DNA from: Candidatus Thalassarchaeaceae archaeon
Lineage (GTDB): Archaea > Thermoplasmatota > Poseidoniia > Poseidoniales > Thalassarchaeaceae
NCBI GenBank assembly: GCA_045568075.1
Contig: JBJLBP010000001.1
Location: 1,260,001 to 1,292,000, forward strand
Direction of reading: 5' to 3'
Length of the DNA: 32,000 nucleotides
Shown: piece after piece, positions 7,067-25,748 of the stretch
Layout of the letters: every line of letters starts with the position of its first letter
Numbering within the stretch: position 1 is the stretch's first letter
The notes under the pieces: model-generated
Told to the model about the DNA's origin: nothing
Database searches by the model: none
What the model saw: only the letters and a program-made list of their open reading frames with translations
Program-made: the position numbers and the translations under genes

Positions 7067-9727
7067 ATGAGCGCGAGGCTGCAGCATGATGGGCTTCGTG
7101 ACGAGGTCATCGAAGCCCGGGCATATCAGCTAGAGGCAGTCGATGTGGCGCTGTCGGGTTCGACCCTTCTTGTGCTTCCGACAGCGGCTGGAAAGACCGC
7201 TGTCGCTTGGATGGTTATGGCCGAGATGCTGCGGCGCTCTGATGGCTGGGCGCTGATGATTGCGCCGACGGTAGCTCTGGTGAAGCAGCATCTCGATGAT
7301 TTACAATCTGTCTTCAAAGATGAATCGATTGAGCCTATCGCGATGAGCGGAGCGATACCTGCATCAAAGCGAGAAGGGATGTGGCAGAAGAGCCGTCTCA
7401 TCGTCTCAACACCTCAAGTGGTTCGCAACGATGTGATGAAGGGGGAGCTGGATCTGAACGGCTGCTGCGTATTGGTGGTCGACGAGGCGCACCATGCTAC
7501 TGGAGAACGTGGTGAAGCACAAGTTGCTGACCTCTATCTCAGACTCGCTGCTGATCCACTGATTCTTGGCATGACTGCCAGCCCCGGATCGAAGACTGAG
7601 AAAGTCGAAGAAATTTGCCAACGGCTCGCAGTCGAGCGAATCCACATGCGCAGTTCGAGTGATGATATGCTCACAGAACACCTCGCAAATCTCGATATTG
7701 AGGAATTACGAGTCAAAGTTCCGAACGAAATTAGAGAACTTGCAGAACCTTTCGTTCGTTGGCAAGAGAGTATCGTCGACCGCGAGCGGCGGCTCGGCAG
7801 ATATGTCCTGCCAGGGCCCGCCTCTCATTCAGGACTTGCCAATGCCATGGAGAGATCAAATGCCGCTATTCGTAGAGGAGAGTCAGACGCCTACGGATCG
7901 ATGAGCAGAATCGGTTTGGCAATGTCCCTTCACCACTTGATCAACCACCTTCTCTGCCAAGGCACTGCTGCCGCTCGAGAATTCCTCGACCGAAAGGAGA
8001 GCGGCGCGGACTCAGAGAAGAAGAACACGCGTAATCTTCTCCGTGACCCGCGAGTCAGAGACCTAAGAGCGAGTCTTGCTGAAATTGGTGAAATCCACAG
8101 CAAGGTTGGTGCAGTGCGACGACTAGTGCGAGAGAGACTACGCCGTGATTCCGAATCTCGAATCATAGTCTTCGCGACCTTCAGAGATTCAGTGACTGCC
8201 CTAGATACAGCATTGGAGAATCTCGAAGGTGCCAAGCCAATCCAATTCATCGGCCAGAGTAAGCGAGGAAGCGGCAAAGGTCTGACGCCAAAGCAGCAGG
8301 TCGAGCGTATCGAATCATTCCGCTCGGGTGAAGGAAACATACTGATTGCCACGAGCGTCGGTGAGGAGGGACTTGACATTCCTAGCGCCGACCTTGTAAT
8401 ATTCTATGAGCCGGTCCCTAGCGAAATTCGGAATATCCAGCGCCGCGGTCGAACCGGCCGTCATCGCGATGGAGATGTTGTCGTCCTGATCGCCGAAGAT
8501 ACTCGTGACGAAGGAGCGCGTGCGGCTGCCCTTCGACGTGAAGAAAACATGTACAGAGCAGTCGGCAGAGTTCGAAGGAAACTGGCTCGTAGTGGCCATC
8601 TTGATCTCTCAAATTTGTCTCAGTTCCGTGTAGAAATCGAAGGAGAACTAACTCCTGCTGCCGAGTTTGTCAGAAGCATACGAGAAACACATCGCCCGGA
8701 ACTCAGTGAACAGCAGCAACCTGAGAACACAGAAGCAGTAGCTGAGCCTCGAATAATTCCGCCATCCACATTCAGACCGAGAGGGCAAACCGGCCTCGAA
8801 AATTTTCCAGCACAGCACGAGAGTTTGGAGCCGAAAAAGCAGAAAACAGCGGAAGTAAAAACACCTCATGTACGCGAAACAGAATCAAGTTCTCCTAATC
8901 CACCAAACAAGAGCGATCCAAAGCCGTCTGAGGAACCTGCGCGACCGGTCTCAGCCGCACAGGATTTGATCGACCTCGAAGAAAGTCTGCCCGACGTCCC
9001 CGGAGCGACGGTTACAGCCGATGATAGAGAACTTAACAGCGCCGTAGTGGCACGATTGAAGGCCTTAGGTGCTGAAGTCCGAATCGACCGCCTGGAGACT
9101 GGAGACTTCCGTATCGGCGAGCGGATTCTAGTAGAGCGTAAAACTGTCAGAGACTTCGTCGACTCACTCATCGACGGTAGGCTCCTTGAACAAGCGAGCA
9201 GACTAGTCGGAGCAGCGCCTAGAAGTCTGCTACTAATCGAGGGAGAAGGACTGTTTCAATCTCCCAGAGTCCACCCCCACGCACTGATGGGAGCACTCAC
9301 CACCCTCGCCCTCGACTTCGGCATCCCTGTGGTCACTACCAAAGATGGGGCAGAAACAGCCCGATTTCTCACCGTTGCATCGCGCCGTGAAGAATCAATG
9401 CTCGACGGGCTCACTCCCCGCGCGCGAGATAGATTAGAGGCAGTCAGACCAGAATTGTGGACAGACCCGGTGACTCAAGCCGCTGCCGCTGCACGCCAAC
9501 TCCGCGGTAGTGAAGACGATGAGAGAACAGGCGCAATCACTCTACTCGTCGCCATCCCAAGCGTCGATGAAGATCTCGCGACACGTCTGCTCAACCGATT
9601 CGGGACCATCGCAGGTCTAGTCTGGGCAGACGAAGACGACCTGCGTCAAGTCGAAGGCATAACGGAGACCCAAGTCCGTGAAATCTGGCGAACATTTCGC
9701 TCCGGCGAACGTCTTCGTAATCGCTGA
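7067..9727 (+). CDS. hef: Hef: helicase-associated endonuclease for fork-structured DNA (SF2 DEAH helicase + ERCC4/XPF nuclease + HhH2)
   Basis: Helicase motifs are Walker A LPTAAGKT, VVDEAHHA, GMTASPG and QRRGRTGR. The C-terminal ERCC4 motif is GDFRIGERILVERKTVRDFVDSLIDGRLLEQ. A terminal helix-hairpin-helix pair follows (ATRLLNRFGTIAGL...LRQVEGITETQ). A low-complexity linker separates the helicase and nuclease parts. Confidence 0.88.
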   Translation: MSARLQHDGLRDEVIEARAYQLEAVDVALSGSTLLVLPTAAGKTAVAWMVMAEMLRRSDGWALMIAPTVALVKQHLDDLQSVFKDESIEPIAMSGAIPASKREGMWQKSRLIVSTPQVVRNDVMKGELDLNGCCVLVVDEAHHATGERGEAQVADLYLRLAADPLILGMTASPGSKTEKVEEICQRLAVERIHMRSSSDDMLTEHLANLDIEELRVKVPNEIRELAEPFVRWQESIVDRERRLGRYVLPGPASHSGLANAMERSNAAIRRGESDAYGSMSRIGLAMSLHHLINHLLCQGTAAAREFLDRKESGADSEKKNTRNLLRDPRVRDLRASLAEIGEIHSKVGAVRRLVRERLRRDSESRIIVFATFRDSVTALDTALENLEGAKPIQFIGQSKRGSGKGLTPKQQVERIESFRSGEGNILIATSVGEEGLDIPSADLVIFYEPVPSEIRNIQRRGRTGRHRDGDVVVLIAEDTRDEGARAAALRREENMYRAVGRVRRKLARSGHLDLSNLSQFRVEIEGELTPAAEFVRSIRETHRPELSEQQQPENTEAVAEPRIIPPSTFRPRGQTGLENFPAQHESLEPKKQKTAEVKTPHVRETESSSPNPPNKSDPKPSEEPARPVSAAQDLIDLEESLPDVPGATVTADDRELNSAVVARLKALGAEVRIDRLETGDFRIGERILVERKTVRDFVDSLIDGRLLEQASRLVGAAPRSLLLIEGEGLFQSPRVHPHALMGALTTLALDFGIPVVTTKDGAETARFLTVASRREESMLDGLTPRARDRLEAVRPELWTDPVTQAAAAARQLRGSEDDERTGAITLLVAIPSVDEDLATRLLNRFGTIAGLVWADEDDLRQVEGITETQVREIWRTFRSGERLRNR

Positions 9728-9732
9728 GAGAG

Positions 9733-10593
9733 TCAGTCACCGATAACAGCGATACGAGTTCGGAGTAGAGCCAATCGGTTATTGTGTGTACCAAGAGCGA
9801 AAGCAAGCATCTCGCACAGATGAATCACCGGGATATTAGTAGCAAGTCCGGCATTACGGCCAGCCTTGCCTTGATACACATCAAGAACATAATGAGAAAG
9901 ATTGCAAGCGCTGACAATCAACTCAGCGCCCTCTGACTTAGCCTCGGACAGAGCCTCAGCAGCCTGCTTCATCACAGTCGAATCCTCACTGAATAGTCCA
10001 GGAACACCGACACTCTGAGTTCGAGCTTCCCAGTTAACTGGGGTTCCACCAAGAGCCGAAATCAACTGCTCCAGATAATTTGGATCATACACATCATCTC
10101 CGCCGCAAGCACCTTCTTGCTGGATGTTTGGTCCGTAATACCCAGCAACCACGAAATCAATCGGGTTGCGGACCTTATCCGCCAACTTGTCCAGACCAAT
10201 CTCATCGACAACCGCGTGTAGTAAGTGGTGAACTGCAACATCCCCTGTCATCGTCAGACCACAGGTGCGCTGCAGAGTCTCGTTGACTTCTTGCAGCAGA
10301 ATTTGGTCTGACTTCAAAGTCATCAGATCTTCATGCAAATTGCCGGCCGTCGCCGCGCATGGAGTCATGATGTCCAGACCCTTTGCCTCAGCCATAGCAA
10401 AAGTGCGTGCATTGAGAGTCAACTGTAGGCGACGGTTAGCCTGTCTTACAATCCCAGCGCCGCAGCTGGTGGCTCCAGGTAAAGGAACCAAAGTGATACC
10501 CAAGGCGCGAGCCAAGGAGTCCATCGTATCAGCAACCTCGGGGGCGCTGCTGTGGGCGACGTTTCCAGGGTGGTAAGCGTATTTTACAGGCAT
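9733..10593 (-). CDS. HdrB / SdhE(type-E SdhC) / CCG-domain family protein with degenerate cysteine motifs
   Basis: The 286-aa ORF is collinear with heterodisulfide reductase subunit B as I remember it (YAYHPG..., ATSCGAG, DIMTPCA, IGLDKLADKVRNPI, YYGPN, VSACNLSHYVLD, IPVIHLCEMLA). GAGGTGAG lies upstream, 9 nt after the stop of the preceding gene. Confidence 0.75.
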   Translation of the reverse strand: MPVKYAYHPGNVAHSSAPEVADTMDSLARALGITLVPLPGATSCGAGIVRQANRRLQLTLNARTFAMAEAKGLDIMTPCAATAGNLHEDLMTLKSDQILLQEVNETLQRTCGLTMTGDVAVHHLLHAVVDEIGLDKLADKVRNPIDFVVAGYYGPNIQQEGACGGDDVYDPNYLEQLISALGGTPVNWEARTQSVGVPGLFSEDSTVMKQAAEALSEAKSEGAELIVSACNLSHYVLDVYQGKAGRNAGLATNIPVIHLCEMLAFALGTHNNRLALLRTRIAVIGD

Positions 10594-10602
10594 TTACTCA
10601 CC

Positions 10603-12576
10603 TCAGAATCTCCCGTCGAGCTCATTGAAAATCGCCACGACCTCATGATGATTCTCGACTGATGAATTGAATTGCCGCGGCATCTTTCCAAATCCTGCGG
10701 GCGGGGCGACCATCGCCAACATATCGTAGAACATATCTCCACCTGTGCGTGTGAATCCTGTCATCATCCGCGCAGTGACTCCAGAAGTCAGGTTTCCAAT
10801 AAGTCCGATAGGGCCGAGAACTTGTCGATAGAGGACTGTATCGTTGACTTTTCCACTCGATTTCAGCGTCCAAGCGTACCACCAAACATGCTTGCCGTGA
10901 CGCCCTGTGAACGCGTCCTGTTCGAGAACGTGCGTCCTTGCGTCGAGCAAAGCCTCTGAGATGACTACACCGGATCCATTCTGCCGGCGAATACTGGCTA
11001 GATCGGTCTCAGCCTTGATTCCGTTCGGACTTCCAAGAATCGAATCAAGGCTGGCAACCGATGAATGAGATGAACGTGGATCGTTGCGACGGGCCCAAGC
11101 AGAAGCGAGGACAGAGGGGCCGAGGTAGCCGTTCGCGTGCGGAACGGCGTCGGATGATGCTTGGAGAAGAGCGGCGCTGCTGAAATCGGTAATCGAGTGC
11201 AACGCCGAGGCAACATTAGGATCCATGACTCCGATGGGGCCTTGCATGGTCGTGGCTCCTTCTCTGGTTGCGGCGACCATCCATGGTTCGGTCGATTCGC
11301 GTCGGCGCTCCATCGGCCAATGATCGACGACTAGGTCACGGATGACTTCGAAGCCAGGTAGTGGATCCACTCGAAGGCTGAGAACTCCATCGCGATTCGG
11401 AGCCACAGCATCGAGGCGAATCATTCCTGGGAGAACTAATCGGCCGTTGACACAGATTGCTGTCGATGGGTCATCGGCAGCCCCGTCACGGAAGGACAGG
11501 CTGCCATCGTGTGTGCTCTTGATGGTTCGAAGAGCCTCAAGCAGACTCAGGTTGCCCGGCATCGCACAGACCCAAGTGTCGGAGCCAGTCGATGCCTGCT
11601 CTGGGTCATAGCGGAAGATACTGAGTTCTGCCTGAACGGCAGCGGCTGTGAGGACAGGTACTGAGAATCCGTCCTCTCCATCGGCTCCGCCAACATCGCC
11701 AGCGGCGTGAGCCTTGATCGCCTCGACCATGTCTTCGTGATAGACACCGGCGCCATCGACGGCGGCTAAAGCAGCCAGTGCTTCGAGAGCCCACGCGGCA
11801 GCTGGCGCATCGTAATCGACATCACAATCCACACGGTCTACGAGTCTTGTAGCACCGAGCTTCTCGAATTGCTCATCCCATTCCTTTCCAGACTCACAGA
11901 ATAATTCGTAGCTCGTATCACCGAGAGCGCAGACCGAGTAGTGGACTCCGGACAGACTGCCGGCTGGAGACTTGGTTGAAATCTGCCAGAGATCCTCGGC
12001 ATTGTCGGGCATTTCGCCCTCTCCCCAAGTTGAACAGACGATGAGGACTCGCTTCATGCCCGAAAGTGAACTGAAATCGAAGCCGTCCATGTCATAGACG
12101 GTTCCTTCGAGGCCGTAATCTGCAGCCTGCTTAGCTAACTTCGCAGCGAGTTCTTCGGAGTTTCCGGATTGTGAGCCAAAGAGAATTGCTAGGCTGCGGT
12201 CGCCAACACTAAGCAACTCGTCGATATCATCGCCAGCCACTTCGATAGGCTCGGAGACCATCGGTTCTGCAGCGGCCTCAACGGCTGGTGCAGCAGCCTC
12301 CTCAGGCTCAGCAGCGGCTGCTTCGCCACTTTCGACGATGATGATCACATCGACTGGACAGCCATCAGCAGCGTCGAGAAGATCATCTTCGAATGAAGCT
12401 AGAGTCTCAGGCTTCAACCCAGCCTTTCCTTCGTTCCTATCGTATCCACCATCAAGCCTCACTTCGGCATGGATGAAGCAGGTATCATCGGTAACGTGGA
12501 AGACTTCTGGAAGAATCTCTTCACAAGCATCGCAGGTGATACAACCTTCCTCGATATAGACACTGACGATGGCCAT
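10603..12576 (-). CDS. Multidomain fusion: [4Fe-4S] ferredoxin - flavodoxin (FMN) - SdhB/FrdB-like domain lacking cluster cysteines
   Basis: Ferredoxin module: GCITCDACEE...DGCPVDVI. Flavodoxin module: LAILFGSQSGNSEELA, LIVCSTWGEGEMPDNAEDLW, YSVCALGDTSYELFCESGKEWDEQFEKLGATRL. SdhB-like module: LSIFRYDPE, GSLSFRDG, PLPGFEVIRDLVVD, GYLGPSVLASAWARRNDPRS. Confidence 0.75.
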   Translation of the reverse strand: MAIVSVYIEEGCITCDACEEILPEVFHVTDDTCFIHAEVRLDGGYDRNEGKAGLKPETLASFEDDLLDAADGCPVDVIIIVESGEAAAAEPEEAAAPAVEAAAEPMVSEPIEVAGDDIDELLSVGDRSLAILFGSQSGNSEELAAKLAKQAADYGLEGTVYDMDGFDFSSLSGMKRVLIVCSTWGEGEMPDNAEDLWQISTKSPAGSLSGVHYSVCALGDTSYELFCESGKEWDEQFEKLGATRLVDRVDCDVDYDAPAAAWALEALAALAAVDGAGVYHEDMVEAIKAHAAGDVGGADGEDGFSVPVLTAAAVQAELSIFRYDPEQASTGSDTWVCAMPGNLSLLEALRTIKSTHDGSLSFRDGAADDPSTAICVNGRLVLPGMIRLDAVAPNRDGVLSLRVDPLPGFEVIRDLVVDHWPMERRRESTEPWMVAATREGATTMQGPIGVMDPNVASALHSITDFSSAALLQASSDAVPHANGYLGPSVLASAWARRNDPRSSHSSVASLDSILGSPNGIKAETDLASIRRQNGSGVVISEALLDARTHVLEQDAFTGRHGKHVWWYAWTLKSSGKVNDTVLYRQVLGPIGLIGNLTSGVTARMMTGFTRTGGDMFYDMLAMVAPPAGFGKMPRQFNSSVENHHEVVAIFNELDGRF

Positions 12577-12648
12577 TTTTCCAACTCAGCCCCGACGGGT
12601 AGTTGCCCCACTGGAAATCGATTCTTGAACTTGATGTAAACCAGTGAT

Positions 12649-12663
12649 ACGACCTACGGTCGT
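12649..12663 (-). other. Short hairpin just downstream of the thermosome stop codon
   Basis: ACGACC-TAC-GGTCGT forms a 6-bp stem with a 3-nt loop, 9 nt after the thermosome stop. There is no strong oligo-T tract, so a terminator role is uncertain. Confidence 0.25.
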
Positions 12664-12671
12664 AATCGACC

Positions 12672-14382: not shown

Positions 14383-17300
14383 TCAATCGCCCTTCTGTTG
14401 ATCTAGCCATTTTTGGCCATAGAAGGCCCACTGCTCCATTGTCCAACCATCAGGGAGGCCTTCTTCTGGAATCGGTGGAACACCAGGAGGTAGGACAGAC
14501 TGAGGCTCAACAGCCGGCTCCTCCACCGGCTCTGGCTCAGGAATCACTTCCTCCACGGGCTCTGGCTCAGGAATCACTTCCTCCACGGGCTCAGGCTCAG
14601 GGATAGGCTCAGGTTCGGGCATTGGAGGAGGGGGCATTTCTGGGGCGGGAGCTTCTGCTGGCTCATCCTCTGGTAGAGGTGGTGGTGGCATCTCTGCGGC
14701 AGGGTTCTCAAAGATGTCAGCTGAGCCTCCGTACATCGAATTAGCAACCTCGTCGGCTGCTGGCAACTCAGGTGCGGCCGGGACTTCGCCATCCCCACCA
14801 AGGTTGACGAAACTCGACGTGTAATCCTCGATACTCGAGTATTCCTCGAGTGGTGCTTGTGCTTCCTTGACGATTCGTAATGTGATTATGCCGACGACAA
14901 CCATCGCAACCAATCCGGCGATGACGAAGACGATGTTGGCTGCCAACTTGGCGATAAATCCGACATCGGGTCCATCAGTGACTTGGATAGTCTTCACCAT
15001 TTGAATTGGAGTTCCGACAGATACCTTGTCTATGTCGGAATCTACCGCAAGAATCACATTGAACGTGAGTGTGTTCTCGCCAAGATTGTCGAGATGTTCC
15101 TGCTTGACATCGATACGAATTGTAACAACCTTGGTCGATTGTGGAGTCAGGACGAAATCTCGGTCCTCACTGTCAACACGGACATCGAAGACATTGAAGA
15201 AGAGTTCAGGCTCTGTGGTACGATCGATATCCGCTCTCATCAACTGTTCAGATGTAGTATGCAGATTCTGAACAGTAAATTCGAGGACATATTCTCCCTT
15301 CTCATCAATTACAACGGTTTGTCCTCCGGCTGGAGGCAAAACTAGCATCCATCCGACCTTTCCAACCTTGAATTCAGCCTCACCTTGAGATGATACACTC
15401 TGGCCTATTGTCTCGGACTCCTGACTGGTAGCAATCAAGGTGACTGTGCGGTCGCCATCCGCACCATGTGCGAAGGCGTAACTTACTGTCAGATTGAGAG
15501 ATGATCCAGCCTCGACCCAAGGGGTCTTACCATTGGTTAATCCCTGCGCGTTGACAGAGATGTCAGAATGGCTCGTCTCGAAGTCAATATGGAACCGATC
15601 GGGCATGTTTCCATGATTCCAGACTTCCCAACGCAAAGTCCGAGAGTCATCACCTGCGCGATAAACCTCCTCGGTAAGATCCATGTCTGGAACCTCGATG
15701 AGATAGGTTTCGGGAACAGTTAGCAACAATTGGACACTGCGCTGGTATTGAGGGTCGATTTGACTGGTCGCTCTGACCCATATTTGGTAGGTCTCATTCT
15801 CAATCCCGTAAGGCATAGGGAACATCAGCAGAATACTCGAGTCTCCACCGAACGGATCGATGCCGAGAGTCTGTTCAGCGTTCAATTCGAGACCCAGTTT
15901 CCAATCAGCAGAAATCGACAGATCAAAGGCCTCCTCAGAGTTACCATCGTTGACCATCTGAATTTCGATCCATCTCAGAGCGCCATCAGCTGGTGCCAAC
16001 ATCTCTCGAATCTCAGGCACCAACTTCAGGTCGTGATCTATCGGCACCTCGACATGGACGGTCCATTCCGTCTGGAAATTAGCCGGAGCGCGCCCATTAG
16101 CGAGCAGGGTAATCGCGTAAGAACCTGGAGTGATTTGATCAGGAGTTGTGAGTTGGGCATTGAGTTCGAATTCATCACCAATCTGCATCTCGACACTAGT
16201 CATTTCGACTCCGGTCTCGTTAGTCCAAACAAGGTTTGATGCTCCCCAACGATTGTCTGCGAAAGTTGCACCAAGATTCCACGTAGCAACTTGATTTCCG
16301 GTATTCTTCAGAGACATCAAAACATCGCCGGTTTCACCAGGTAACAGAGTCAGAGCAGGATTCTGCAATGTTTTCTGCGTCAGATAGGACGAATATGATG
16401 CAGTTACATCGACGGGTAAGTCGATGGCCCACTTTGAGAAATTTGTCAAACCATCACCGATGTGAACATACCAATCGACTTCCTGAACAGTCGCACCATC
16501 GGGAATAGTCAGATTGATCCAGAGATCCATCGTCTCTAGGGCTTTGATCGTCTTCGTCACAACGCTATTGTCGTGATCTGAGGGGTGGTTGGAATCAATT
16601 CGTAGTGGTTGCTCCCACATCCATGACTTGTTCGATACCTCGGTGTAAACTCTGAGAGTGATGTCAACATATCCGTTATTTATCACTGCACACGAGAGAG
16701 AGGGTGGTCGTGGATCAGCTGGAACGACGATGTATGCATTAGGAAGAGGATCGTCGCATTCAAGATCAAGGGTATATTCAGGAATACGCTCTATGCCGAA
16801 CATGATGAATCCATCAAGGTGGATTCCTTGTGTTGCAAAGGAAGAATCGGAATCGAATCTGAATGCCAGTGTGTAGTCACCAGTTGGATGGACGTCGGAC
16901 ATATCCCAGACCAGTTGAGTCCAGTCACCATAAGTTTCGGATAACTCTTGAGCAGTGTAATTGTAGAATTCTTCGTTACCGGCATCGGCTTCCATTCGGA
17001 CCATATCACCAGTTCCCATACTGCCCCAAGCGTGCGTTACCATCTGCAAAGAGATGAACTCAAATCCACGGATGCGAGCACGACAGAAGTTGTTGGCGTA
17101 TACAGCAGACACACTCTGGTCGAGTGTCCCATAACCCAGACCGTGTCCGGGGTCCTCACAGGAATCGAAAGGTGACAACCAACCCCACCATAGACGGTCA
17201 ATTCGGTTGCTTGCGTAATCAGCGCCCGGTCGGGAGACTCGCCAGTGACGCTCGCCGATGGCACTCGATGTATTGTCCATCCTCCAATGTCCGGAGTCGT

Positions 17301-17988
17301 CAGGGTAGTCAGAAAGAGAGCCGTCTGAGTCATATCCAGCTCCAACCCAGGTTGGGTTGTTGTAGCTTAGTTGGTTCGGGCAATCTGCAGTATTGTCTTG
17401 ATCGACATCTCCGCAAATTCCGTTCTCCATCGGGTCGTCCCATACAGCGACTGGCATCTCGCGGTCTAGCTGATTATTCTCTTCATTATCGTCTGCGAGG
17501 CCACCATCGATGATACCTCGGAGGATGATTCCGCCGACGAGGTAACCATTCTCATCGAGTTGGCTGTGAGCGGAATTAGGAGTCCAGTAAAATTCTGCTC
17601 GGTAGGATTGGAATCCAGAGAGTGTCATATTCACTTGCCACTGTGTAATCATGAATCCCACAGGGTGCCATATCTGCATGATTCCATTAGCACTCGCCGG
17701 CTGACCTGAAGTTCCAGCCTGGGTGAATGTGACATTAATTTGAATCAATTCATCTCGGAGAACGTATTCAACAATACTGTCATCTGGATTGGTCCACTCC
17801 CTCGCGTCGAGAGAACCGTTTCCAATCTCGATAGCTGTCACTTCGAAATCGATGAGGGCGCGAGGTGCGACCTCACGCGCAGGGTTGTGGTCTAGTGCCG
17901 GGCCAAACGCAAGGGGCGAGAGGCTCGTCACCATCAGAATGGCGAATAACGTGAGAGGAGTCAGGCTACGCATGGACAACGAGTTCAT
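14383..17988 (-). CDS. Large type-I surface protein (signal peptide, ~1000-aa ectodomain, one C-terminal TM helix, Pro/Glu-rich cytoplasmic tail)
   Basis: The start was moved to ATG 17988 (MNSLSMRSLTPLTLFAILMVTSLSPLAFG, a signal-peptide-like sequence). The longer track ORF would overlap the divergent gene. The TM helix is FIAKLAANIVFVIAGLVAMVVVGIITL. The ectodomain is beta-rich, with repeated CARDB/COG1470-like segments such as GETGDVLMSLKNTGNQVATWNL. No enzymatic motif was recognised. Confidence 0.7.
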   Translation of the reverse strand: MNSLSMRSLTPLTLFAILMVTSLSPLAFGPALDHNPAREVAPRALIDFEVTAIEIGNGSLDAREWTNPDDSIVEYVLRDELIQINVTFTQAGTSGQPASANGIMQIWHPVGFMITQWQVNMTLSGFQSYRAEFYWTPNSAHSQLDENGYLVGGIILRGIIDGGLADDNEENNQLDREMPVAVWDDPMENGICGDVDQDNTADCPNQLSYNNPTWVGAGYDSDGSLSDYPDDSGHWRMDNTSSAIGERHWRVSRPGADYASNRIDRLWWGWLSPFDSCEDPGHGLGYGTLDQSVSAVYANNFCRARIRGFEFISLQMVTHAWGSMGTGDMVRMEADAGNEEFYNYTAQELSETYGDWTQLVWDMSDVHPTGDYTLAFRFDSDSSFATQGIHLDGFIMFGIERIPEYTLDLECDDPLPNAYIVVPADPRPPSLSCAVINNGYVDITLRVYTEVSNKSWMWEQPLRIDSNHPSDHDNSVVTKTIKALETMDLWINLTIPDGATVQEVDWYVHIGDGLTNFSKWAIDLPVDVTASYSSYLTQKTLQNPALTLLPGETGDVLMSLKNTGNQVATWNLGATFADNRWGASNLVWTNETGVEMTSVEMQIGDEFELNAQLTTPDQITPGSYAITLLANGRAPANFQTEWTVHVEVPIDHDLKLVPEIREMLAPADGALRWIEIQMVNDGNSEEAFDLSISADWKLGLELNAEQTLGIDPFGGDSSILLMFPMPYGIENETYQIWVRATSQIDPQYQRSVQLLLTVPETYLIEVPDMDLTEEVYRAGDDSRTLRWEVWNHGNMPDRFHIDFETSHSDISVNAQGLTNGKTPWVEAGSSLNLTVSYAFAHGADGDRTVTLIATSQESETIGQSVSSQGEAEFKVGKVGWMLVLPPAGGQTVVIDEKGEYVLEFTVQNLHTTSEQLMRADIDRTTEPELFFNVFDVRVDSEDRDFVLTPQSTKVVTIRIDVKQEHLDNLGENTLTFNVILAVDSDIDKVSVGTPIQMVKTIQVTDGPDVGFIAKLAANIVFVIAGLVAMVVVGIITLRIVKEAQAPLEEYSSIEDYTSSFVNLGGDGEVPAAPELPAADEVANSMYGGSADIFENPAAEMPPPPLPEDEPAEAPAPEMPPPPMPEPEPIPEPEPVEEVIPEPEPVEEVIPEPEPVEEPAVEPQSVLPPGVPPIPEEGLPDGWTMEQWAFYGQKWLDQQKGD
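14521..14610 (-). repeat. In-frame 30-bp tandem repeat (about 3 copies, the third diverged) encoding (P)EPEPVEEVI units
   Basis: Copies at 14521-14550 and 14551-14580 (CTCCACSGGCTCTGGCTCAGGAATCACTTC) differ at one base. 14581-14610 is a diverged third copy. The repeat lies in the cytoplasmic tail of the surface protein. Confidence 0.85.
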
Positions 17989-18147
17989 GCGATATCGATT
18001 CGGGTATGAAGGTTCGGTCACTGCGTGCGCCGCCCTACGGGCGGCCACATGAATGGCTCCGGCAGGCACAATCACCGCCCGAGAACCGACACTGTGCAGT
18101 TCACCTCCAATGAAGGGCTTATGTTCGCTTGTAGTCGCCACGAGGCA

Positions 18148-19278
18148 ATGTCGCGGCAGAGAACCCCTCTCTTGCCGCGCTTCGTACTGGCTACAATCGT
18201 TCTCGGACAAGTCACCGTCGCCCCTATCGTGGGTTTCTCTCTGACCTATCTGCTATCGATTAACAACGATGGAAACCAACTCTCCTTCGATATAGATCTG
18301 GGTGCCTTAGATTGGATTATTATCGCTGGACTGTCATACGGTATGCTGTCCTTGGTCCTCGCTCTGATCGCCGGAGCTTACTCACCAGCCAGTGTTGCGG
18401 ACAGAGGAGGATGGCTGACAGTTCTTGGACTGCGAAGAAGAGTGAATCAACCAGAATTGATCGATCGAGCAAGGCTCAATTTGCAACGCAGTCCTTACGG
18501 CCAAATGGCGCGATTAGTCAGTAGCCAGACGGGGCGATATGACCTTCTTTCAATTCATGGAGGGCTACAGATTCTAGCAGTGCCAATCCAAGTTGCTCTG
18601 ATCGCTATTCCACTCATGATAATGGAAGGGATTCCCGAGCGATTCGTCGAGCCCGAGCAAGCCTTTGAATTGGGGATGGTTGGATATTTCATCGCTCTCT
18701 GGTTCTGCCTTAGAATACAGCCAGTTTACTCAAGGCACCTGATAGGAATCGCGGCTTGGTTCCGCAAAATTCTATCTAGAATCTCAAAATTCTCCTGGAT
18801 TCTCCCCATTATCATATTCTGGTTCGTAGCCCGTATAATGCTCAAACTCGCCCTCGATTGGCTTGACGTGGACTATTCGGTATGGCATAATGTCCAATTG
18901 GAGGCGGTGCTGTTGAAATCGATAATGCCCGCCGACCAAATTCCGGATGTCGCGATAATTGATTTCCTCGTCGCAATATCCGTACTTCCTGTCGCGGTCT
19001 TCACTACAATCTCTGTCCTTGGAGGGGCGCACGATATGCCAGATTGGATGCACGACCCTGAGGAAAAGATAGAGAATTTGAATCAAAATTTATTGGAAGA
19101 AGATGCAACTCCTGAGGTTGATGATGATGATGGAAAAGATTCGGACCCTCTCGCAGAATTCGGCACCTGGAGGCGCACCACTGGTGCCGAAGCAGAGGAA
19201 GAGATCGACTCTTCTTCGGAAGATGAAGAGGAATCCTCCCGAATGATCGATTTACCATTCGGTCTCTTTGATGACTGA
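18148..19278 (+). CDS. Polytopic membrane protein of unknown function with a long acidic C-terminal tail
   Basis: I prefer the ATG at 18148 (MSRQRTPLLPRFVLATIVLGQVTV...). There are several hydrophobic helices. The last ~73 aa are strongly acidic and end in ...SSSEDEEESSRMIDLPFGLFDD. The N-terminal 41 codons of the track ORF overlap the divergent promoter region and are basic and low-complexity. Confidence 0.6.
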   Translation: MSRQRTPLLPRFVLATIVLGQVTVAPIVGFSLTYLLSINNDGNQLSFDIDLGALDWIIIAGLSYGMLSLVLALIAGAYSPASVADRGGWLTVLGLRRRVNQPELIDRARLNLQRSPYGQMARLVSSQTGRYDLLSIHGGLQILAVPIQVALIAIPLMIMEGIPERFVEPEQAFELGMVGYFIALWFCLRIQPVYSRHLIGIAAWFRKILSRISKFSWILPIIIFWFVARIMLKLALDWLDVDYSVWHNVQLEAVLLKSIMPADQIPDVAIIDFLVAISVLPVAVFTTISVLGGAHDMPDWMHDPEEKIENLNQNLLEEDATPEVDDDDGKDSDPLAEFGTWRRTTGAEAEEEIDSSSEDEEESSRMIDLPFGLFDD

Positions 19279-23330: not shown

Positions 23331-25655
23331 TCAGAGAGAACCTATCAAAGGTCCAACGACCAAGCTCACGAGTAACCAACCCCCGAGCATGGCACTGGCC
23401 AAACCCCAAGCCCTCGGACGGATGCCCACGCTGAGACTACCCAGCGTACGAGGGATTGGGCCTGTAATACCGATTATGCCACGCGCGAGCACAATAGATA
23501 GGCCCGCGGCGAGGATTAGTCCAACCAACATCGCCAAAGCCAAAATCACCCCAAATCCACCAGTGCTGGCGACCGAACCAACCCCCTGAGCGACCATGTC
23601 AGGTGTGCGTAACCAGATCAACCAAGCAAGCCATATTCCTAGATGGACATCATCACTGAATGAAGATAGTTTTCGCCATTCACGGTAAGCCTGTGGAAGT
23701 AGGGAATGCAGCTTTCCAGCAATCCAATCGATCTCTGGTATTCTTCCTTTGGTCAGTGTTCTGACGCCGTGATAGGTAAGCAGTGATGCAAGACCAACTT
23801 CAATCCAAATCCAAATTGAACCAAGTCCAGCAACCGCCATGAGAGAAATCGGTACTGCCCAAATCGCAAATCCAAATCCGGCTCCGAGCAGAGTTAGCAG
23901 AACTCCTGAGCCGGGCAGCAGAACTTCGTCGGGCTCCTCATAGCGACTTTCACGGGGCATCGCTAGGATGAATATTGGGAGGAGTGCGGTGCCCCAAAGC
24001 AAAGTCAACGGGTCGAGGAAACTGTGTCCAGAACCCTTGCTGGCATCCTCGACCGCGTCAGCAATCTCGGAACTGGAATAGGTTCCTGGAGCCCAATCTG
24101 TAACGAAGCCAGCGGCGTCGATTATGATTACAGCGTCGCTGGCGCCGCTGGGAAAGGCCTGACCTATGCTTGAATCCGACTTGTCCATCAGTAGTGGCCA
24201 GGAACCATTGATAATCGCCGCATGAGAATCTAAATCGACAGCTCTGACTCCTTTTCCAGTCGCTATTTGAACAAAAGCGATATCGCTGTCGATCAATGCT
24301 GCGGCCATCTGGAAGTCATTGGCTTGACGGATCGCATTGGCCGACCCCGGCACATACATGCCGATGATCACAGCGTCGGACTCTGAGAGTAATTCAGAGA
24401 GTGAAACCGAGCCATCGCCGCCGTGTTCAAGCAAAGCGAAGGAAGGAGCAGCGCCGTCGGCACGCGAGGCATTCGCATCGATATCTGGCAAATGAACCGC
24501 TGGCCCGATGCTGGCGATAGCGAGAACGAGAATTACTGCATAGGCCGGCATCGGTAGCATCGCCTCACGCATAGAGGCACCCAACCAAGCAATGACCCCT
24601 AGTGGTATCATTACCGCAACCCAAGTGCCACTTAGCAGAGCCTCGGGGTCTTTCTCAACCTCGAATTTCAGAACCGCCACAACATCGCATGGTTCTGCAG
24701 GGTCCTGGTCTTGGAGAGTGAAACAAGCATCAATCATGTACAATCCTGGCTCTAGTGGATTCGAAGTTGACCAAGTTAGAACCGTCCGATTAGCCTCCCC
24801 CACTCTGAATGAATGCGGCGCCTCGAAGTGTTCGAGGCGTTCATCCTCCTGACCAAATCCATGTACCATCGATTCGTAATCATCCATTGGACCGACAACC
24901 TCGATGACTTGATCTGAGAAGTCGTCTGGACCCCATGGTGAAATTGGAGTGAATTCGATTCTTGTGATTCTATTGGAATCGGTGACCTGTTGCATTTGTG
25001 GATCAATCAGGTCACCGGTGAAGGTGATTCCACTCCTAGCATCATACGTCCCCCACCAAAGCGAACCAGGTTGTACGCAGTCGTGTTGAACCGAAACTTG
25101 CAGAGATAGCACATCTCCTGGACCAAGATTGACGCCTTCGATAGGAACCTCGACTTGGAAAAGATGAGACTGAGTGTAGGATTCCTCCATCGTCACCTGA
25201 TTCGTCGCAACCCCATTCAAAAGAGTGAACGAACCCCACTGCAAGGTAACGAAGAAACTCGTTGTCGCACCGGCTGGAGAACCAGGAATCACATTTGTCT
25301 GCCTACAAACCGGTGATTTCGCTTCGAGGGAGGCAAAGAGATCGACCGTGACTGTTCCGTTGAGTGAAAACGCCTCCTCAATCGGCGCTCCTTCAACATC
25401 GAGCAGTATCTGAGGTGCGCCGACCGTTTTCGAGAAACTCGCTGAACCACTAGGAATTCCAGTGACTATTGGCCAATCACGCCGCAGCTCTGGAATCTCT
25501 TCAGTTCCGTGAAGGAAGATATTGTGAGATTGTGGTAGTTCAAGGTCAAGACCGGGGCCGTATTCTTCTCCACTTTGAGCAGAAGTACTACTCGACGCCA
25601 GAGTCCCGATGAGTAGCAAAATCACTACTACTGTCAGAATCCGCGGCCTCGGCAT
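23331..25655 (-). CDS. Polytopic membrane protein with an N-terminal secreted beta-rich domain and an internal TlpA/ResA-like thioredoxin-fold domain lacking CXXC
   Basis: I prefer the ATG at 25655 (MPRPRILTVVVILLLIGTLASS), preceded by GAGAGGGA. The order is a ~320-aa ectodomain, 2 TM helices, a thioredoxin-like segment (APSFALLEHGGDGSVSLSELL...AVIIGMYVPGSANA...WPLLMDKSDSSIGQAF...AVIIIDAAGFV), then about 6 TM helices. Confidence 0.65.
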   Translation of the reverse strand: MPRPRILTVVVILLLIGTLASSSTSAQSGEEYGPGLDLELPQSHNIFLHGTEEIPELRRDWPIVTGIPSGSASFSKTVGAPQILLDVEGAPIEEAFSLNGTVTVDLFASLEAKSPVCRQTNVIPGSPAGATTSFFVTLQWGSFTLLNGVATNQVTMEESYTQSHLFQVEVPIEGVNLGPGDVLSLQVSVQHDCVQPGSLWWGTYDARSGITFTGDLIDPQMQQVTDSNRITRIEFTPISPWGPDDFSDQVIEVVGPMDDYESMVHGFGQEDERLEHFEAPHSFRVGEANRTVLTWSTSNPLEPGLYMIDACFTLQDQDPAEPCDVVAVLKFEVEKDPEALLSGTWVAVMIPLGVIAWLGASMREAMLPMPAYAVILVLAIASIGPAVHLPDIDANASRADGAAPSFALLEHGGDGSVSLSELLSESDAVIIGMYVPGSANAIRQANDFQMAAALIDSDIAFVQIATGKGVRAVDLDSHAAIINGSWPLLMDKSDSSIGQAFPSGASDAVIIIDAAGFVTDWAPGTYSSSEIADAVEDASKGSGHSFLDPLTLLWGTALLPIFILAMPRESRYEEPDEVLLPGSGVLLTLLGAGFGFAIWAVPISLMAVAGLGSIWIWIEVGLASLLTYHGVRTLTKGRIPEIDWIAGKLHSLLPQAYREWRKLSSFSDDVHLGIWLAWLIWLRTPDMVAQGVGSVASTGGFGVILALAMLVGLILAAGLSIVLARGIIGITGPIPRTLGSLSVGIRPRAWGLASAMLGGWLLVSLVVGPLIGSL

Positions 25656-25748
25656 GGCTATCCCTCTCAACTCAACGCCCTACAGACCGGCATTCAAACC
25701 CCGCGCTTACTCGTGTTCGATGAAAACGATTCCATGAGGGCTCAGAAT

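What the first reader, a model, noticed from the sequence alone, without database searches (positions are those of the whole stretch)
9733..12576. Operon pairing a ferredoxin-flavodoxin-SdhB-like fusion with an HdrB/SdhE-like protein, both stripped of their Fe-S cysteine ligands
The 657-aa ORF joins four modules.
- A single-cluster ferredoxin (C12-x2-C15-x2-C18 ... C73-P).
- An Ala/Glu/Pro linker.
- A CysJ/CPR-type FMN flavodoxin.
- A domain clearly related to the succinate dehydrogenase/fumarate reductase Fe-S subunit. PLPGFEVIRDLVVD matches E. coli SdhB PLPGLPVIRDLVVD, GSLSFRDG matches PSLSFRRS, and YLGPSVLASAWARRNDPRS matches FIGPAGLLAAYRFLIDSRD (comparison sequences from memory).

The positions that ligate the 2Fe-2S, 4Fe-4S and 3Fe-4S clusters in SdhB are not cysteines here. 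There is no Cys at all after residue 375. A roughly 90-aa insertion splits the C-terminal half.

Nine nt downstream lies a 286-aa HdrB / type-E SdhC(SdhE) CCG-domain homolog, with its GAGGTGAG ribosome-binding site overlapping the stop codon of the fusion gene. By manual alignment it keeps only about 3 of the 10 CCG-motif cysteines: ATSCGAG for ASCCPAPG, HPGN for LGC, YYGPN for HYGCH, SVGVPG for CCGAGG, SACNLSH for VCPFCH.

No SdhA-like flavoprotein gene is adjacent. An SdhB+SdhE pair is the hallmark of type-E succinate:quinone oxidoreductases. Here that pair seems to survive as a cluster-free scaffold, while the redox cofactors sit in the fused ferredoxin and flavodoxin. I do not know of a described complex like this.
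Basis: partly seen in the sequence, partly recalled or inferred. Interest (0 to 1): 0.72.

Follow-up and report, generated by a model that had tools for sequence, protein, structure and literature searches.

The report
Iron-stripped SdhB/SdhE pair with tethered carriers
A core two-gene operon of the abundant marine archaea Poseidoniales descends from the iron-sulfur and anchor subunits of an archaeal-type succinate dehydrogenase, has lost nearly all its iron-sulfur sites yet stays strongly conserved, and carries a fused ferredoxin and flavodoxin that appear to replace the lost electron wire.

Summary
ORF A (10603-12576, minus strand, 657 aa) is ferredoxin + CysJ-type flavodoxin + an SdhB-like domain ("X") with none of the Fe-S cysteines. 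ORF B (9733-10593, minus strand, 286 aa) is a full-length HdrB/SdhE homologue with 3 of 10 CCG cysteines.

- **Correction:** the "90-aa insertion" is not real. X is collinear end to end with ~320-aa type-E SdhBs, whose genes sit in sdhA-sdhB-sdhE operons.
- **Distribution:** the pair is confined to Poseidoniales (108 species genomes), always adjacent.
- **Selection:** it is under purifying selection as strong as housekeeping genes (dN/dS 0.03-0.04).
- **Graded series:** X lacks all clusters everywhere. ORF B keeps an intact N-terminal CCG motif in basal lineages and loses it in derived ones, including this window's. The carriers run Fd-Fd, Fd, Fd-Fld, Fld-Fld, Fld, and extra flavodoxins arose by repeated duplication.

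The best reading is an iron-minimised electron-transfer module in which tethered carriers replace the Fe-S wire and feed a residual site in ORF B. Donor and acceptor are unknown. No paper analyses it, and it is auto-annotated as "CysJ" and "SdhC". I rate it a new variant of a known kind, with high interest.

The parts
10603..12576 (-). ORF A, 657 aa: Fd - linker - Fld - linker - cluster-free SdhB-like domain X (stop codon at 10603-10605)
   Evidence: ORF list; Pfam/NCBIfam domains; 100 %-identical proteins in Poseidoniales MAGs named 'flavodoxin domain-containing protein' or hypothetical
12337..12576 (-). Residues 1-80: single-cluster ferredoxin, C12-x2-C15-x2-C18 ... C73-P74. This is the only Fe-S site left in this lineage's pair
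   Evidence: Fer4_13 E 6e-8. C12, C15, C18, C73 and P74 are invariant among Fd-bearing orthologues. dN/dS 0.05
12205..12336 (-). Residues 81-124: Ala/Glu/Pro-rich flexible linker 1
   Evidence: dN/dS 0.51, nearly unconstrained; pLDDT below 50
11761..12204 (-). Residues 125-272: CysJ/CPR-type FMN flavodoxin (GSQSGNSE phosphate loop, STWGEGEMPDNA and LGDTSYELFC ring loops)
   Evidence: Flavodoxin_1 1.6e-31; cysJ TIGR01931 7.6e-41 over this segment only; 1ykg 7.4e-25; the only confidently modelled part of ORF A; dN/dS 0.04
11632..11760 (-). Residues 273-315: linker 2
   Evidence: dN/dS 0.61
11302..11631 (-). Residues 316-425: X, N-terminal 2Fe-2S-fold domain. The four ligand columns are now A366, D369, T372 and G384
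   Evidence: Fer2_3 2e-9; alignments to SdhB; ligand columns in 81 orthologues; dN/dS 0.045
10942..11301 (-). Residues 426-545: X, former 2x[4Fe-4S] (HdrC-like) ferredoxin part. Former ligands are now F465, A468, L471, S475 / E523, I529, N533 (an eighth column was not scored)
   Evidence: Collinear alignment with long SdhBs. Ligand columns hold 1 % Cys; S475 and E523 are invariant. dN/dS 0.088
10606..10941 (-). Residues 546-657: X, C-terminal extension shared with type-E long SdhBs (G-x-RH ... SG-x-LNE), plus clade-specific GFTRTGG, GKMP and a C-terminal HHEVVAIFNELDxRF tail. Presumed arm that holds ORF B
   Evidence: Alignment; most constrained part of ORF A, dN/dS 0.021; long-SdhB profile reaches HdrC beyond the second cluster motif
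10597..10604 (-). GAGGTGAG Shine-Dalgarno-like motif overlapping the ORF A stop codon; 9-nt spacer (10594-10602) before the ORF B ATG
   Evidence: Sequence read. A and B are 0-25 nt apart in all loci
9733..10593 (-). ORF B, 286 aa: HdrB/SdhE-fold protein with two degenerate CCG motifs (N11 S43 C44 C79 T82 | P155 V195 G196 C230 S233)
   Evidence: CCG Pfam 3.3e-10; HdrB TIGR03288 1.5e-38; SdhE 6.5e-32; PDB HdrB 5.7e-30; AF2 pLDDT 84.7, TM 0.85 to HdrB; dN/dS 0.028
9892..9906 (-). C230-N-L-S233-H234: remnant of the C-terminal CxxCH motif. C230 is invariant in 76/76 orthologues and H234 in >=97 %. Together with C79 (10357-10359) and C44 (10462-10464; Asp in the Poseidoniaceae-labelled NSDC group) it is a candidate residual site
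   Evidence: Conservation tables. Hdr bridging cysteines C81/C234 correspond to the lost T82/S233 (PMC13083937)

Best explanation
**What it is (shown).** ORF A and ORF B are the Poseidoniales-specific descendant of a type-E succinate dehydrogenase sdhB-sdhE gene pair.
- The SdhB-like part (X) has lost all three cluster sites in every member.
- The HdrB/SdhE-like subunit has lost its C-terminal CCG site in every member. It has also lost its N-terminal one in derived lineages, including this window's.
- One or two small electron carriers are fused to the N-terminus of X on unconstrained linkers. These are a [4Fe-4S]-type ferredoxin and/or a CysJ-type FMN flavodoxin.
- All folded parts are under strong purifying selection.

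**How it most likely works (inferred).**
- X and ORF B still form the SdhB-SdhE/HdrC-HdrB-type heterodimer, held by X's C-terminal arm. The dimer now serves as a docking and substrate-binding platform.
- The tethered carriers have functionally replaced the lost internal Fe-S wire.
- An external ferredoxin/flavodoxin-reducing enzyme loads the outer carrier. Candidates that are core in this order are 2-oxoacid:ferredoxin oxidoreductase and ETF.
- Electrons pass to the inner FMN and then to an acceptor in the inter-domain cleft of ORF B.
- Ancestrally this last step went through the surviving N-terminal noncubane CCG cluster. In this window's lineage it would go directly from FMN to a residual site built from C44, C79, C230 and H234.
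- The acceptor is probably a quinone (as proposed for SdhE) or a disulfide (as in HdrB).

**Driver (inferred).** Iron economy and/or oxygen tolerance. The cluster count falls from 5 (type-E SdhB+SdhE) to 2, then 1 (this window), then 0 (Fld-Fld-X and Fld-X lineages).
For: **Descent**
- X is collinear with long SdhBs of the PRK12576/12577 type.
- 5 of 5 of those SdhBs lie in sdhA-sdhB-sdhE operons with the same B-to-E gene order.
- ORF B is 33-38 % identical to those SdhE proteins and has the HdrB fold (TM 0.85).

**Maintained function**
- dN/dS: X 0.041, X arm 0.021, ORF B 0.028. Reference genes: thermosome 0.017, L3 0.045. Linkers: 0.5-0.6.
- The pair is present and adjacent in all Poseidoniales loci recovered from 108 species genomes.

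**Wire cut**
- 11 ligand columns across 81 orthologues hold 1 % Cys and no conserved His/Asp set.

**Carriers as interchangeable relay modules**
- Architectures seen: Fd-Fd-X, Fd-X, Fd-Fld-X, Fld-Fld-X and Fld-X.
- Every lineage with an intact N-CCG motif and a fully recovered ORF A keeps a ferredoxin.
- Fld-only architectures occur only where the N-CCG ligands are gone.
- The extra flavodoxins are duplicates of the resident one and arose at least 3-4 times. For example, in L025 Fld1 and Fld2 are 78 % identical.

**Precedents**
- EtfD homologues that lack one CCG cluster are proposed to take electrons from a flavin directly into the remaining noncubane cluster (PMC13083937).
- Fd-to-Fld replacement is the classic marine iron-sparing move (PMC10287166 and PMC5322553, listed).

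**Candidate donors**
- korAB, fdxA and etfAB are core genes in MGII (supplement of PMC6336850).
Against: - No biochemical data exist.
- The X-B interaction is inferred from homology only. The X model failed (pLDDT 44) and no multimer model could be run.
- Donor and acceptor are guesses, and gene neighbours are uninformative because the whole region is syntenic order-wide.
- No membrane-binding segment is predicted, which weakens a quinone role.
- Flavodoxin FMN normally performs one-electron transfers. Direct reduction of a substrate at a cluster-free cleft has no demonstrated precedent in this fold.
- Conserved residues are only mildly enriched around the former cluster pockets. My count is 15 of 50 pocket positions versus 46 of 236 elsewhere.
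Confidence: 0.4

Rival explanations
1. Iron-sparing alternative "iron-sulfur subunit" for succinate dehydrogenase. X still docks the SdhA flavoprotein through its conserved SdhB-type N-terminal domain. The CysJ-type FMN domain, a module specialised for flavin-to-flavin transfer, takes electrons from SdhA's FAD. ORF B provides the SdhE-type quinone or anchor site. The result would be a "diflavin" complex II needing one or no Fe-S clusters.
For: - X keeps the SdhB signature motifs FRYDP, DGSLSFR and PLPGFxVIRDLVVD, with dN/dS 0.045.
- The carriers are fused exactly where sdhA lies in ancestral operons.
- In the MGII core-gene table, sdhA and one sdhB cluster are present. [quoted passage not shown] No sdhD is listed.
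Against: - A separate sdhB gene cluster exists in about 90 % of MGII genomes, so a canonical Fe-S subunit is retained.
- The pair is never adjacent to sdhA in about 80 loci.
- In SdhB complexes the N-terminal domain sits between FAD and the outside, so a tethered FMN would have difficulty approaching FAD (structural knowledge, not tested here).
- I could not retrieve the Poseidoniales sdhAB locus to check for other anchors.
Confidence: 0.15
2. Non-catalytic pseudoenzyme. The X-B dimer is a pure docking, regulatory or assembly scaffold. It could localise or present a tethered ferredoxin/flavodoxin to another enzyme, or sense redox or iron status. ORF B's cleft would have no substrate chemistry. 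The residual Cys/His site would bind a structural metal such as zinc.
For: - All catalytic features of the ancestors are gone in this lineage, including the Hdr bridging cysteines (T82, S233).
- Sulfolobus SdhE has an isolated Zn site with S3(O/N)1 coordination (PMC2754724). C44/C79/C230/H234 would fit this, and the C44-to-Asp change in the Poseidoniaceae-labelled NSDC group is a typical metal-ligand swap.
- Single-Fld variants have only one FMN, which behaves like a free carrier.
Against: - Basal lineages keep a complete Hdr-like five-cysteine motif including the bridging cysteine. This argues the cleft was redox-active after the fusion arose.
- Constraint on the whole of X and ORF B is very strong, at housekeeping level.
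Confidence: 0.2
3. The proteins still bind Fe-S clusters through non-cysteine ligands or through cysteines supplied in trans. The "loss" would then be only apparent.
For: - Asp, His or Ser can ligate clusters in some proteins.
- S475 and E523 are invariant at two former ligand columns.
Against: - Most former ligand columns are hydrophobic or variable (V/F/I, L/A, I/M, G), and one has gaps. No site has four plausible ligands.
- ORF B's ex-cluster loops are the low-confidence parts of an otherwise good model.
Confidence: 0.04
4. The pair is a decaying relic or pseudogene, or an assembly or gene-calling artefact.
For: Loss of nearly all cofactor ligands could look like decay.
Against: - Reading frames are intact in about 80 independent genomes.
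- dN/dS is 0.03-0.04.
- Conserved translational-coupling spacing is seen.
- The identical protein is seen on 78 contigs.
Confidence: 0.01

Closest known systems
Type-E (non-classical) succinate:quinone oxidoreductase subunits SdhB + SdhE (Sulfolobus/Acidianus SdhABEF; Wolinella/Campylobacter MFR SdhABE)
   Same: - Same two protein folds in the same gene order.
- X shares the long SdhB's C-terminal extension.
- ORF B is 33-38 % identical to SdhE proteins from sdhABE operons.
   Different: - No sdhA is adjacent.
- All 11-12 SdhB cluster cysteines are gone.
- 7 of 10 CCG cysteines are gone in this window.
- Fd and Fld modules are fused to the N-terminus.
- Scores are far below the equivalog cut-offs: 50 vs 344 bits for SdhB PRK12576, and 111 vs 500 bits for SdhE.
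Heterodisulfide reductase HdrB/HdrC of methanogens (PDB 5ODC, 8RVU)
   Same: - ORF B superposes on HdrB over its full length (TM 0.85, rmsd 2.7 Å, 28 % identity).
- The long-SdhB/X profile matches HdrC.
   Different: - HdrB carries two noncubane [4Fe-4S] clusters with bridging C81/C234. In ORF B these are T82/S233, and only C44, C79 and C230 remain.
- Poseidoniales are aerobic heterotrophs with no CoM/CoB system (general knowledge).
Mycobacterial EtfD and its homologues FadF/DgcB (HdrBC-like soluble module, PDB 9OJN)
   Same: - It is a CCG/HdrBC-derived module re-used in aerobic electron transfer.
- Its homologues have lost one CCG cluster and are proposed to receive electrons directly from a flavin (PMC13083937).
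- It is a fold hit of ORF B.
   Different: - EtfD keeps four clusters and a haem-b membrane domain.
- The flavin donor (ETF) is a separate protein, not a fused flavodoxin.
Thiol:fumarate reductase TfrB (SdhB fused to a CCG domain)
   Same: It combines SdhB-like and CCG modules, and occurs in the same phylum: a Methanomassiliicoccales TfrB is among X's hits.
   Different: - It is fused in one chain and keeps all clusters.
- It pairs with TfrA.
- Split SdhB/SdhE proteins are closer to X and ORF B.
FMN domain of diflavin reductases (CysJ, cytochrome P450 reductase, NOS)
   Same: It is the best sequence match of the flavodoxin module. It is a tethered shuttle on a flexible hinge.
   Different: - No FNR-like FAD/NADPH domain follows (140 vs 668 bits for cysJ).
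- The automatic name "sulfite reductase flavoprotein" is therefore wrong.
Ferredoxin-to-flavodoxin substitution under iron limitation in marine microbes
   Same: Iron-containing carrier modules are repeatedly replaced by FMN modules.
   Different: - Here the swap happens inside one polypeptide, by duplication of the resident flavodoxin.
- It is accompanied by permanent loss of cluster sites in the partner domains. It is not a regulated isoprotein switch.

Membership tests
SdhB/FrdB iron-sulfur subunit (TIGR00384 / PRK05950) | Significant sequence similarity over both domains, reaching the curated cut-off | tested here: inconclusive
   Homology is significant (E 1.7e-14 and 9.6e-15). Scores of 53.8 and 54.4 bits fall below the cut-offs of 88 and 228.
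SdhB/FrdB iron-sulfur subunit | Four ligands for the [2Fe-2S] cluster | tested here: not met
   The columns are A366, D369, T372 and G384, and they vary across 81 orthologues.
SdhB/FrdB iron-sulfur subunit | CxxCxxCxxxC(P) motifs for the [4Fe-4S] and [3Fe-4S]/second [4Fe-4S] clusters | tested here: not met
   Residues are F465, A468, L471, S475 and E523, I529, N533. Cys makes up 1 % of the pooled ligand columns.
SdhB/FrdB iron-sulfur subunit | Encoded next to, and working with, an SdhA/FrdA flavoprotein | tested here: not met
   No FAD_binding_2/Succ_DH_flav_C gene is adjacent in the window or in about 80 related loci. Physical association with SdhA is not testable here.
Type-E long SdhB (PRK12576/12577) | C-terminal extension after the second cluster motif (G-x-RH ... 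SG-x-LNE ... GK-P) | tested here: met
   Collinear alignment to the end of ORF A.
CCG-domain proteins HdrB/SdhE (PF02754) | Profile match above the gathering score, and the HdrB fold | tested here: met
   40.4 bits versus 20.6. The AF2 model has TM 0.85 to HdrB.
CCG-domain proteins HdrB/SdhE | Two CX(n)CCGX(m)CXXC motifs with five cysteines each | tested here: not met
   The window has 2 of 5 plus 1 of 5. Basal relatives have 5 of 5 plus 1 of 5.
HdrB (TIGR03288) / MFR SdhE (NF042965) equivalogs | Score reaches the equivalog cut-off | tested here: not met
   132.7 versus 345 bits, and 111.2 versus 500 bits.
Flavodoxin (PF00258) | Profile match above the cut-off, with intact FMN phosphate and ring loops | tested here: met
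   109.9 versus 25 bits. GSQSGN, WGEGExPDNA and LGDTSY are conserved. FMN binding itself is not testable here.
CysJ, sulfite reductase flavoprotein (TIGR01931) | FMN domain followed by an FAD/NADPH (FNR-like) domain | tested here: not met
   The match covers profile positions 59-204 of 597 only, at 140 versus 668 bits.
Single-cluster ferredoxin (Fer4_13) | CxxCxxC ... CP ligand set | tested here: met
   C12, C15, C18, C73 and P74 are invariant among Fd-bearing orthologues.
Asp/Glu racemase (PF01177) | Profile score above the cut-off, and racemase-like fold superposition | tested here: not met
   25.4 versus 31 bits. Foldseek TM is about 0.33 only.

The most novel reading that the evidence does not exclude
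The pair is the working core of a respiratory-type oxidoreductase that runs on flavins instead of iron-sulfur clusters. Tethered flavodoxin(s) would have replaced a five-cluster wire. The enzyme would be either a "diflavin" complex II that docks SdhA or a ferredoxin/flavodoxin:quinone (or disulfide) reductase. It would have evolved stepwise under ocean iron scarcity in one of the most abundant archaeal groups, and the intermediate stages are still alive in sister lineages.
Probability: 0.25. Interest if true: 0.9.

Novelty: new variant of a known kind. Interest (0 to 1): 0.7.

Why it matters
- **Abundance.** Poseidoniales are among the most abundant planktonic archaea. This pair is a core gene set: it is found in 108 species genomes, and "cysJ" is scored in 99-100 % of MGII genomes.
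- **Annotation errors.** Pipelines name it sulfite reductase flavoprotein (CysJ) and succinate dehydrogenase cytochrome b subunit (SdhC). That can distort reconstructions of sulfur assimilation and of complex II in these organisms.
- **A natural experiment.** The order holds a living series of step-by-step Fe-S cluster removal from an electron-transfer module (5 to 2 to 1 to 0 clusters). The carriers were replaced recurrently by flavodoxin. The series shows how redox enzymes can be rebuilt for iron scarcity or oxygen. It offers ready-made constructs for asking which clusters in SdhB/HdrBC-type modules are dispensable.
- **A possible answer to an open question.** If the acceptor is the quinone pool, the pair could explain how aerobic archaea that use 2-oxoacid:ferredoxin oxidoreductases return ferredoxin electrons to respiration.

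Tried and rejected
1. **Racemase idea.** ORF B's SACNLSH resembles the racemase PCNTAH motif, and Pfam Asp_Glu_race hit at 1.5e-5. Rejected: the score is below the cut-off, and Foldseek TM is about 0.33 versus 0.85 for HdrB. The His is the ancestral CxxCH histidine.
2. **Looking for sdhA/sdhB in the window.** The 555-aa and 249-aa overlapping ORFs looked like candidates. They are a PrsW protease and a DUF92 protein.
3. **A possible third operon gene.** Basal lineages have an extra 0.8-1.7 kb between ORF B and Hef. It is the Hef nuclease domain split off as its own gene.
4. **Hunt for Poseidoniales' canonical SdhB.**
   - Three cluster look-ups on 30 candidates gave no Poseidoniales names.
   - Acidic candidates were haloarchaeal-type SdhBs or a truncated ORF A.
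   - P0200/L091 looked promising: a Tara contig with GC 53.7 %, tetranucleotide r 0.78 to the window, and sdhA next to a tail-anchored sdhB.
   - My last homology search showed P0200 is a singleton whose nearest relatives are Nitrospinae at no more than 57 % identity. It is not a core Poseidoniales gene, and the compositional match was misleading.
5. **Structure prediction.**
   - The full-length ORF A model from a shallow alignment is unusable outside the flavodoxin.
6. **Membrane association.** No transmembrane or strongly amphipathic segment was found.
7. **Single versus parallel loss of the N-CCG ligands.**
   - My first bootstrap test used faulty regex states, and a second run timed out.
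   - The corrected test favours a single loss (79 % versus 21 %).
   - Single-gene trees and the family labels on the records point to parallel loss. I leave this unresolved.
8. **Literature.** No paper analyses the pair. One mentions it in passing under its automatic names (PMC6741140).

Full report
**1. What is in the sequence.**

Two co-oriented ORFs lie on the minus strand, at 10603-12576 (657 aa, ORF A) and 9733-10593 (286 aa, ORF B). They are 9 nt apart, and GAGGTGAG overlaps the ORF A stop codon.

ORF A carries three domains that score above Pfam's gathering cut-offs:
- Fer4_13 at residues 9-78.
- Flavodoxin_1 at 131-254.
- Fer2_3, the SdhB N-terminal domain, at 318-421.

The flavodoxin is of the CysJ/CPR kind. 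TIGR01931 matches at 7.6e-41, but only to the FMN part, scoring 140 against a 668-bit cut-off. The CysJ FMN domain 1ykg matches at 7.4e-25.

Residues 314-503 match SdhB models at about 1e-14 and solved SdhBs at 3e-7 to 3e-6. Cysteines stop at residue 375.

ORF B matches HdrB over its full length (TIGR03288 1.5e-38; PDB 8rvv_B 5.7e-30) and SdhE of the MFR complex (6.5e-32). The alignment shows that 3 of the 10 CCG-motif cysteines survive: C44, C79 and C230.

An AlphaFold model of ORF B is confident (pLDDT 84.7, pTM 0.86). Its weakest segments are the former cluster loops. It superposes on HdrB with TM 0.85.

The neighbours are a thermosome, Hef, a ribosomal-protein operon and a large surface protein. 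No SdhA-like gene is in the window.

**2. One correction to the observation.**

The "90-aa insertion" does not exist. An exhaustive search with residues 301-657 found a small family: 16 clusters at E<1e-30. Next came cysteine-bearing SdhBs of about 311-381 aa.

Aligned with these, the whole of X (residues 316-657) is collinear, including a C-terminal extension that short E. coli-type SdhBs lack. These relatives belong to the long PRK12576/12577 group.

All five that I looked up lie in sdhA-sdhB-sdhE(CCG) operons. So X plus ORF B descend from a type-E sdhB-sdhE pair and keep its gene order. The Fd-Fld modules are fused where sdhA would lie.

**3. Distribution and selection.**

The source is a Poseidoniales (Marine Group II) archaeon. 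A scan of one genome per species found relatives in 108 genomes. Essentially all are Poseidoniales of both families. Two are oddly labelled bins that show the same synteny.

In the 80 loci fetched:
- ORF A and ORF B are adjacent wherever the contig allows.
- The entire region is syntenic: aminotransferase, surface protein, thermosome, A, B, Hef, ribosomal operon.
- The other neighbours therefore carry no functional signal.

Pairwise dN/dS values are:

| Segment | dN/dS |
|---|---|
| Fd | 0.05 |
| Fld | 0.04 |
| X (whole) | 0.041 |
| X C-terminal arm | 0.021 |
| ORF B | 0.028 |
| Linker 1 / linker 2 | 0.51 / 0.61 |
| Thermosome (reference) | 0.017 |
| Ribosomal protein L3 (reference) | 0.045 |
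| Aminotransferase (reference) | 0.035 |

The cluster-free parts are therefore functional proteins, not relics.

**4. Ligand columns.**

I examined 81 X orthologues at the 11 columns where at least 5 of 6 true SdhBs have cysteine.
- They hold 1.0 % Cys and 3.4 % His.
- The rest are mostly hydrophobic or small residues.
- Two columns are fixed as S475 and E523.

There is no alternative ligand set.

**5. A graded series inside the order.**

ORF B orthologues fall into three states at the N-terminal CCG motif:

| State | Where |
|---|---|
| CCCCC (intact, including the cysteine equivalent to Hdr's bridging C81) | 21 loci plus two further relatives |
| NSCCT | 25 loci, including this window |
| NSDC(S/A) | 29 loci; every record labelled Poseidoniaceae falls in this group |

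The C-terminal motif is degenerate everywhere ([P/S/A]-V/A-G-C-S/A). C79 and C230 are invariant in 76 of 76 sequences, and H234 is conserved in at least 97 %.

The carrier modules vary:
- Fd-Fd-X (P0134), Fd-X (P0131) and Fd-Fld-X occur with an intact N-CCG motif.
- Fd-Fld-X, Fld-Fld-X (about 730 aa) and Fld-X (about 550 aa) occur where the N-CCG ligands are gone.
- No Fld-only architecture is seen with an intact motif.

The additional N-terminal flavodoxins are duplicates of the resident CysJ-type module. They arose at least 3-4 times. For example, in L025 Fld1 and Fld2 are 78 % identical.

CCCCC is the ancestral state. It is shared with SdhE outgroups and with the deepest lineages.

Whether the N-CCG ligands were lost once or twice is unresolved:
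- A concatenated NJ bootstrap favours one loss (79 % versus 21 %). The shared C-to-N and C-to-S replacements fit this.
- Single-gene trees and the family labels of the records suggest parallel loss.

The predicted Fe-S cluster count thus runs from 5 (type-E SdhB+SdhE) to 2 (Fd + N-CCG), then 1 (this window), then 0.

**6. How it most likely works.**

Shown:
- Descent from a type-E pair.
- Retention of folds and of strong constraint.
- Loss of the internal wire.
- Interchangeable tethered carriers on unconstrained linkers.

Inferred:
- X and ORF B still pair as SdhB-SdhE or HdrC-HdrB do. The shared C-terminal arm is X's most constrained part. The long-SdhB profile reaches HdrC past the second cluster motif.
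- The tethered carriers replace the wire. They take electrons from an external Fd/Fld-reducing enzyme and deliver them to ORF B's inter-domain cleft.
- In basal lineages delivery would go through the surviving noncubane cluster. A precedent is known: EtfD homologues lacking one CCG cluster are proposed to accept electrons directly from a flavin (PMC13083937).
- In this window's lineage the cleft keeps only C44, C79, C230 and H234. The Hdr bridging cysteines are T82 and S233.
- That residual site could be a dithiol. It could also be a mononuclear metal site like the S3(O/N)1 zinc site reported in Sulfolobus SdhE (PMC2754724). The C44-to-Asp change in the NSDC group fits a metal ligand.

Candidate donors that are core genes in MGII are KorAB, a ferredoxin and EtfAB. 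The acceptor, quinone or disulfide, is a guess. No membrane-binding segment is predicted.

The repeated Fd-to-Fld replacement points to iron economy as the driver. Oxygen tolerance may also contribute. This is the well-known marine iron-sparing substitution, here occurring inside a single polypeptide.

**7. Rivals.**

(a) An iron-sparing alternative Fe-S subunit for SdhA, giving a "diflavin" complex II.
- For: X retains the SdhB signature motifs. In the MGII core-gene table ORF A is scored as cysJ, and the only sdhC cluster is probably ORF B, with no sdhD listed.
- Against: a separate sdhB cluster exists in about 90 % of genomes. The pair is never next to sdhA. I could not retrieve the Poseidoniales sdhAB locus.

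(b) A non-catalytic scaffold or sensor with a structural metal.

(c) Clusters bound by non-cysteine ligands. This is unlikely.

(d) A relic or artefact. This is refuted.

**8. Comparison with the known, and novelty.**

The pair works most like, and descends from, type-E SdhB/SdhE. It fails the defining cofactor features of SdhB, HdrB/SdhE and CysJ, and scores below all equivalog cut-offs.

I found no paper that analyses it. One genomic survey lists the two genes next to the thermosome under their automatic names (PMC6741140). The MGII pangenome paper counts them as cysJ and, probably, sdhC.

I class it as a new variant of a known kind: a cluster-free, carrier-tethered derivative of the SdhB/SdhE (HdrC/HdrB-like) module. 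The function is unknown and the evolutionary series is unusually informative. Interest 0.7.

Noticed in passing
L060:11873-12577, L063:11935-12681, L068:11901-12548, L075:11877-12665, L078:4916-5626 (all minus strand): In several basal Poseidoniales lineages the Hef helicase/nuclease is split. The ERCC4/XPF nuclease plus HhH part is a separate 215-262-aa gene next to ORF B. In the window (7067-9727) it is fused to the helicase.
   Followed up: partly
proteins P0197 and P0238: Two unrelated SdhB-like proteins from the exhaustive search have also lost most Fe-S cysteines. P0238 has only 2 Cys in 241 aa. Cysteine-depleted SdhB homologues may exist outside Poseidoniales.
   Followed up: no
PDB 3kwl: An uncharacterised Helicobacter pylori protein with a crystal structure matches ORF B's fold (TM 0.74). 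Its N-terminal part matches the SdhB 2Fe-2S-domain profile. It seems to be a fused SdhB-N/CCG (TfrB-like) protein of unknown function. I could not read its sequence to check its cysteines.
   Followed up: no
L088 (3.0-Mb ENA contig, locus GC 68.5 %): A Poseidoniales-like genome has an unusually high GC and a large contig size. It keeps the same synteny, but a PLD-domain gene is inserted between the thermosome and ORF A, and its ORF A is an Fd-X form without flavodoxin.
   Followed up: partly
L052 (labelled Rhodobiaceae bacterium) and L076 (labelled Deltaproteobacteria SAG): Both loci have the full Poseidoniales synteny (thermosome-A-B-Hef), with 80-82 % thermosome identity to the window. They are probably mis-binned or contaminating archaeal contigs in bacterial assemblies.
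   Followed up: partly
L091:4055-7301 (Tara contig): An unidentified marine organism encodes sdhA followed by an SdhB with an acidic linker and its own C-terminal transmembrane helix. No sdhC/D/E is nearby. A 67-aa Fer4_13 ferredoxin and a P450 lie next to it. The SdhB is a singleton whose nearest relatives are Nitrospinae (no more than 57 % identity).
   Followed up: partly
window 14383-18210 (minus strand): A 1275-aa ORF has no Pfam match and a C-terminal Pro/Glu-rich repeat (EPEPVEEVIPEPEPVEE...). It is probably a surface protein. It is conserved in position across the order but diverges fast (27-57 % identity).
   Followed up: no
window 23331-25670 (minus strand) and 18025-19278 (plus strand): Two sizeable ORFs (779 aa and 417 aa) have no Pfam family. 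The second is conserved in synteny across the order at 32-50 % identity.
   Followed up: no
window 12643-12665: An inverted repeat (ACGACC-gta-GGTCGT) lies just after the thermosome stop codon, in the 96-nt spacer before ORF A. It may separate the two transcription units.
   Followed up: no
supplement of PMC6336850: The MGII core-gene table counts this family as cysJ (sulfite reductase flavoprotein). It probably also counts ORF B as sdhC. Published MGII reconstructions of sulfur assimilation and complex II may rest partly on these mis-annotations.
   Followed up: partly
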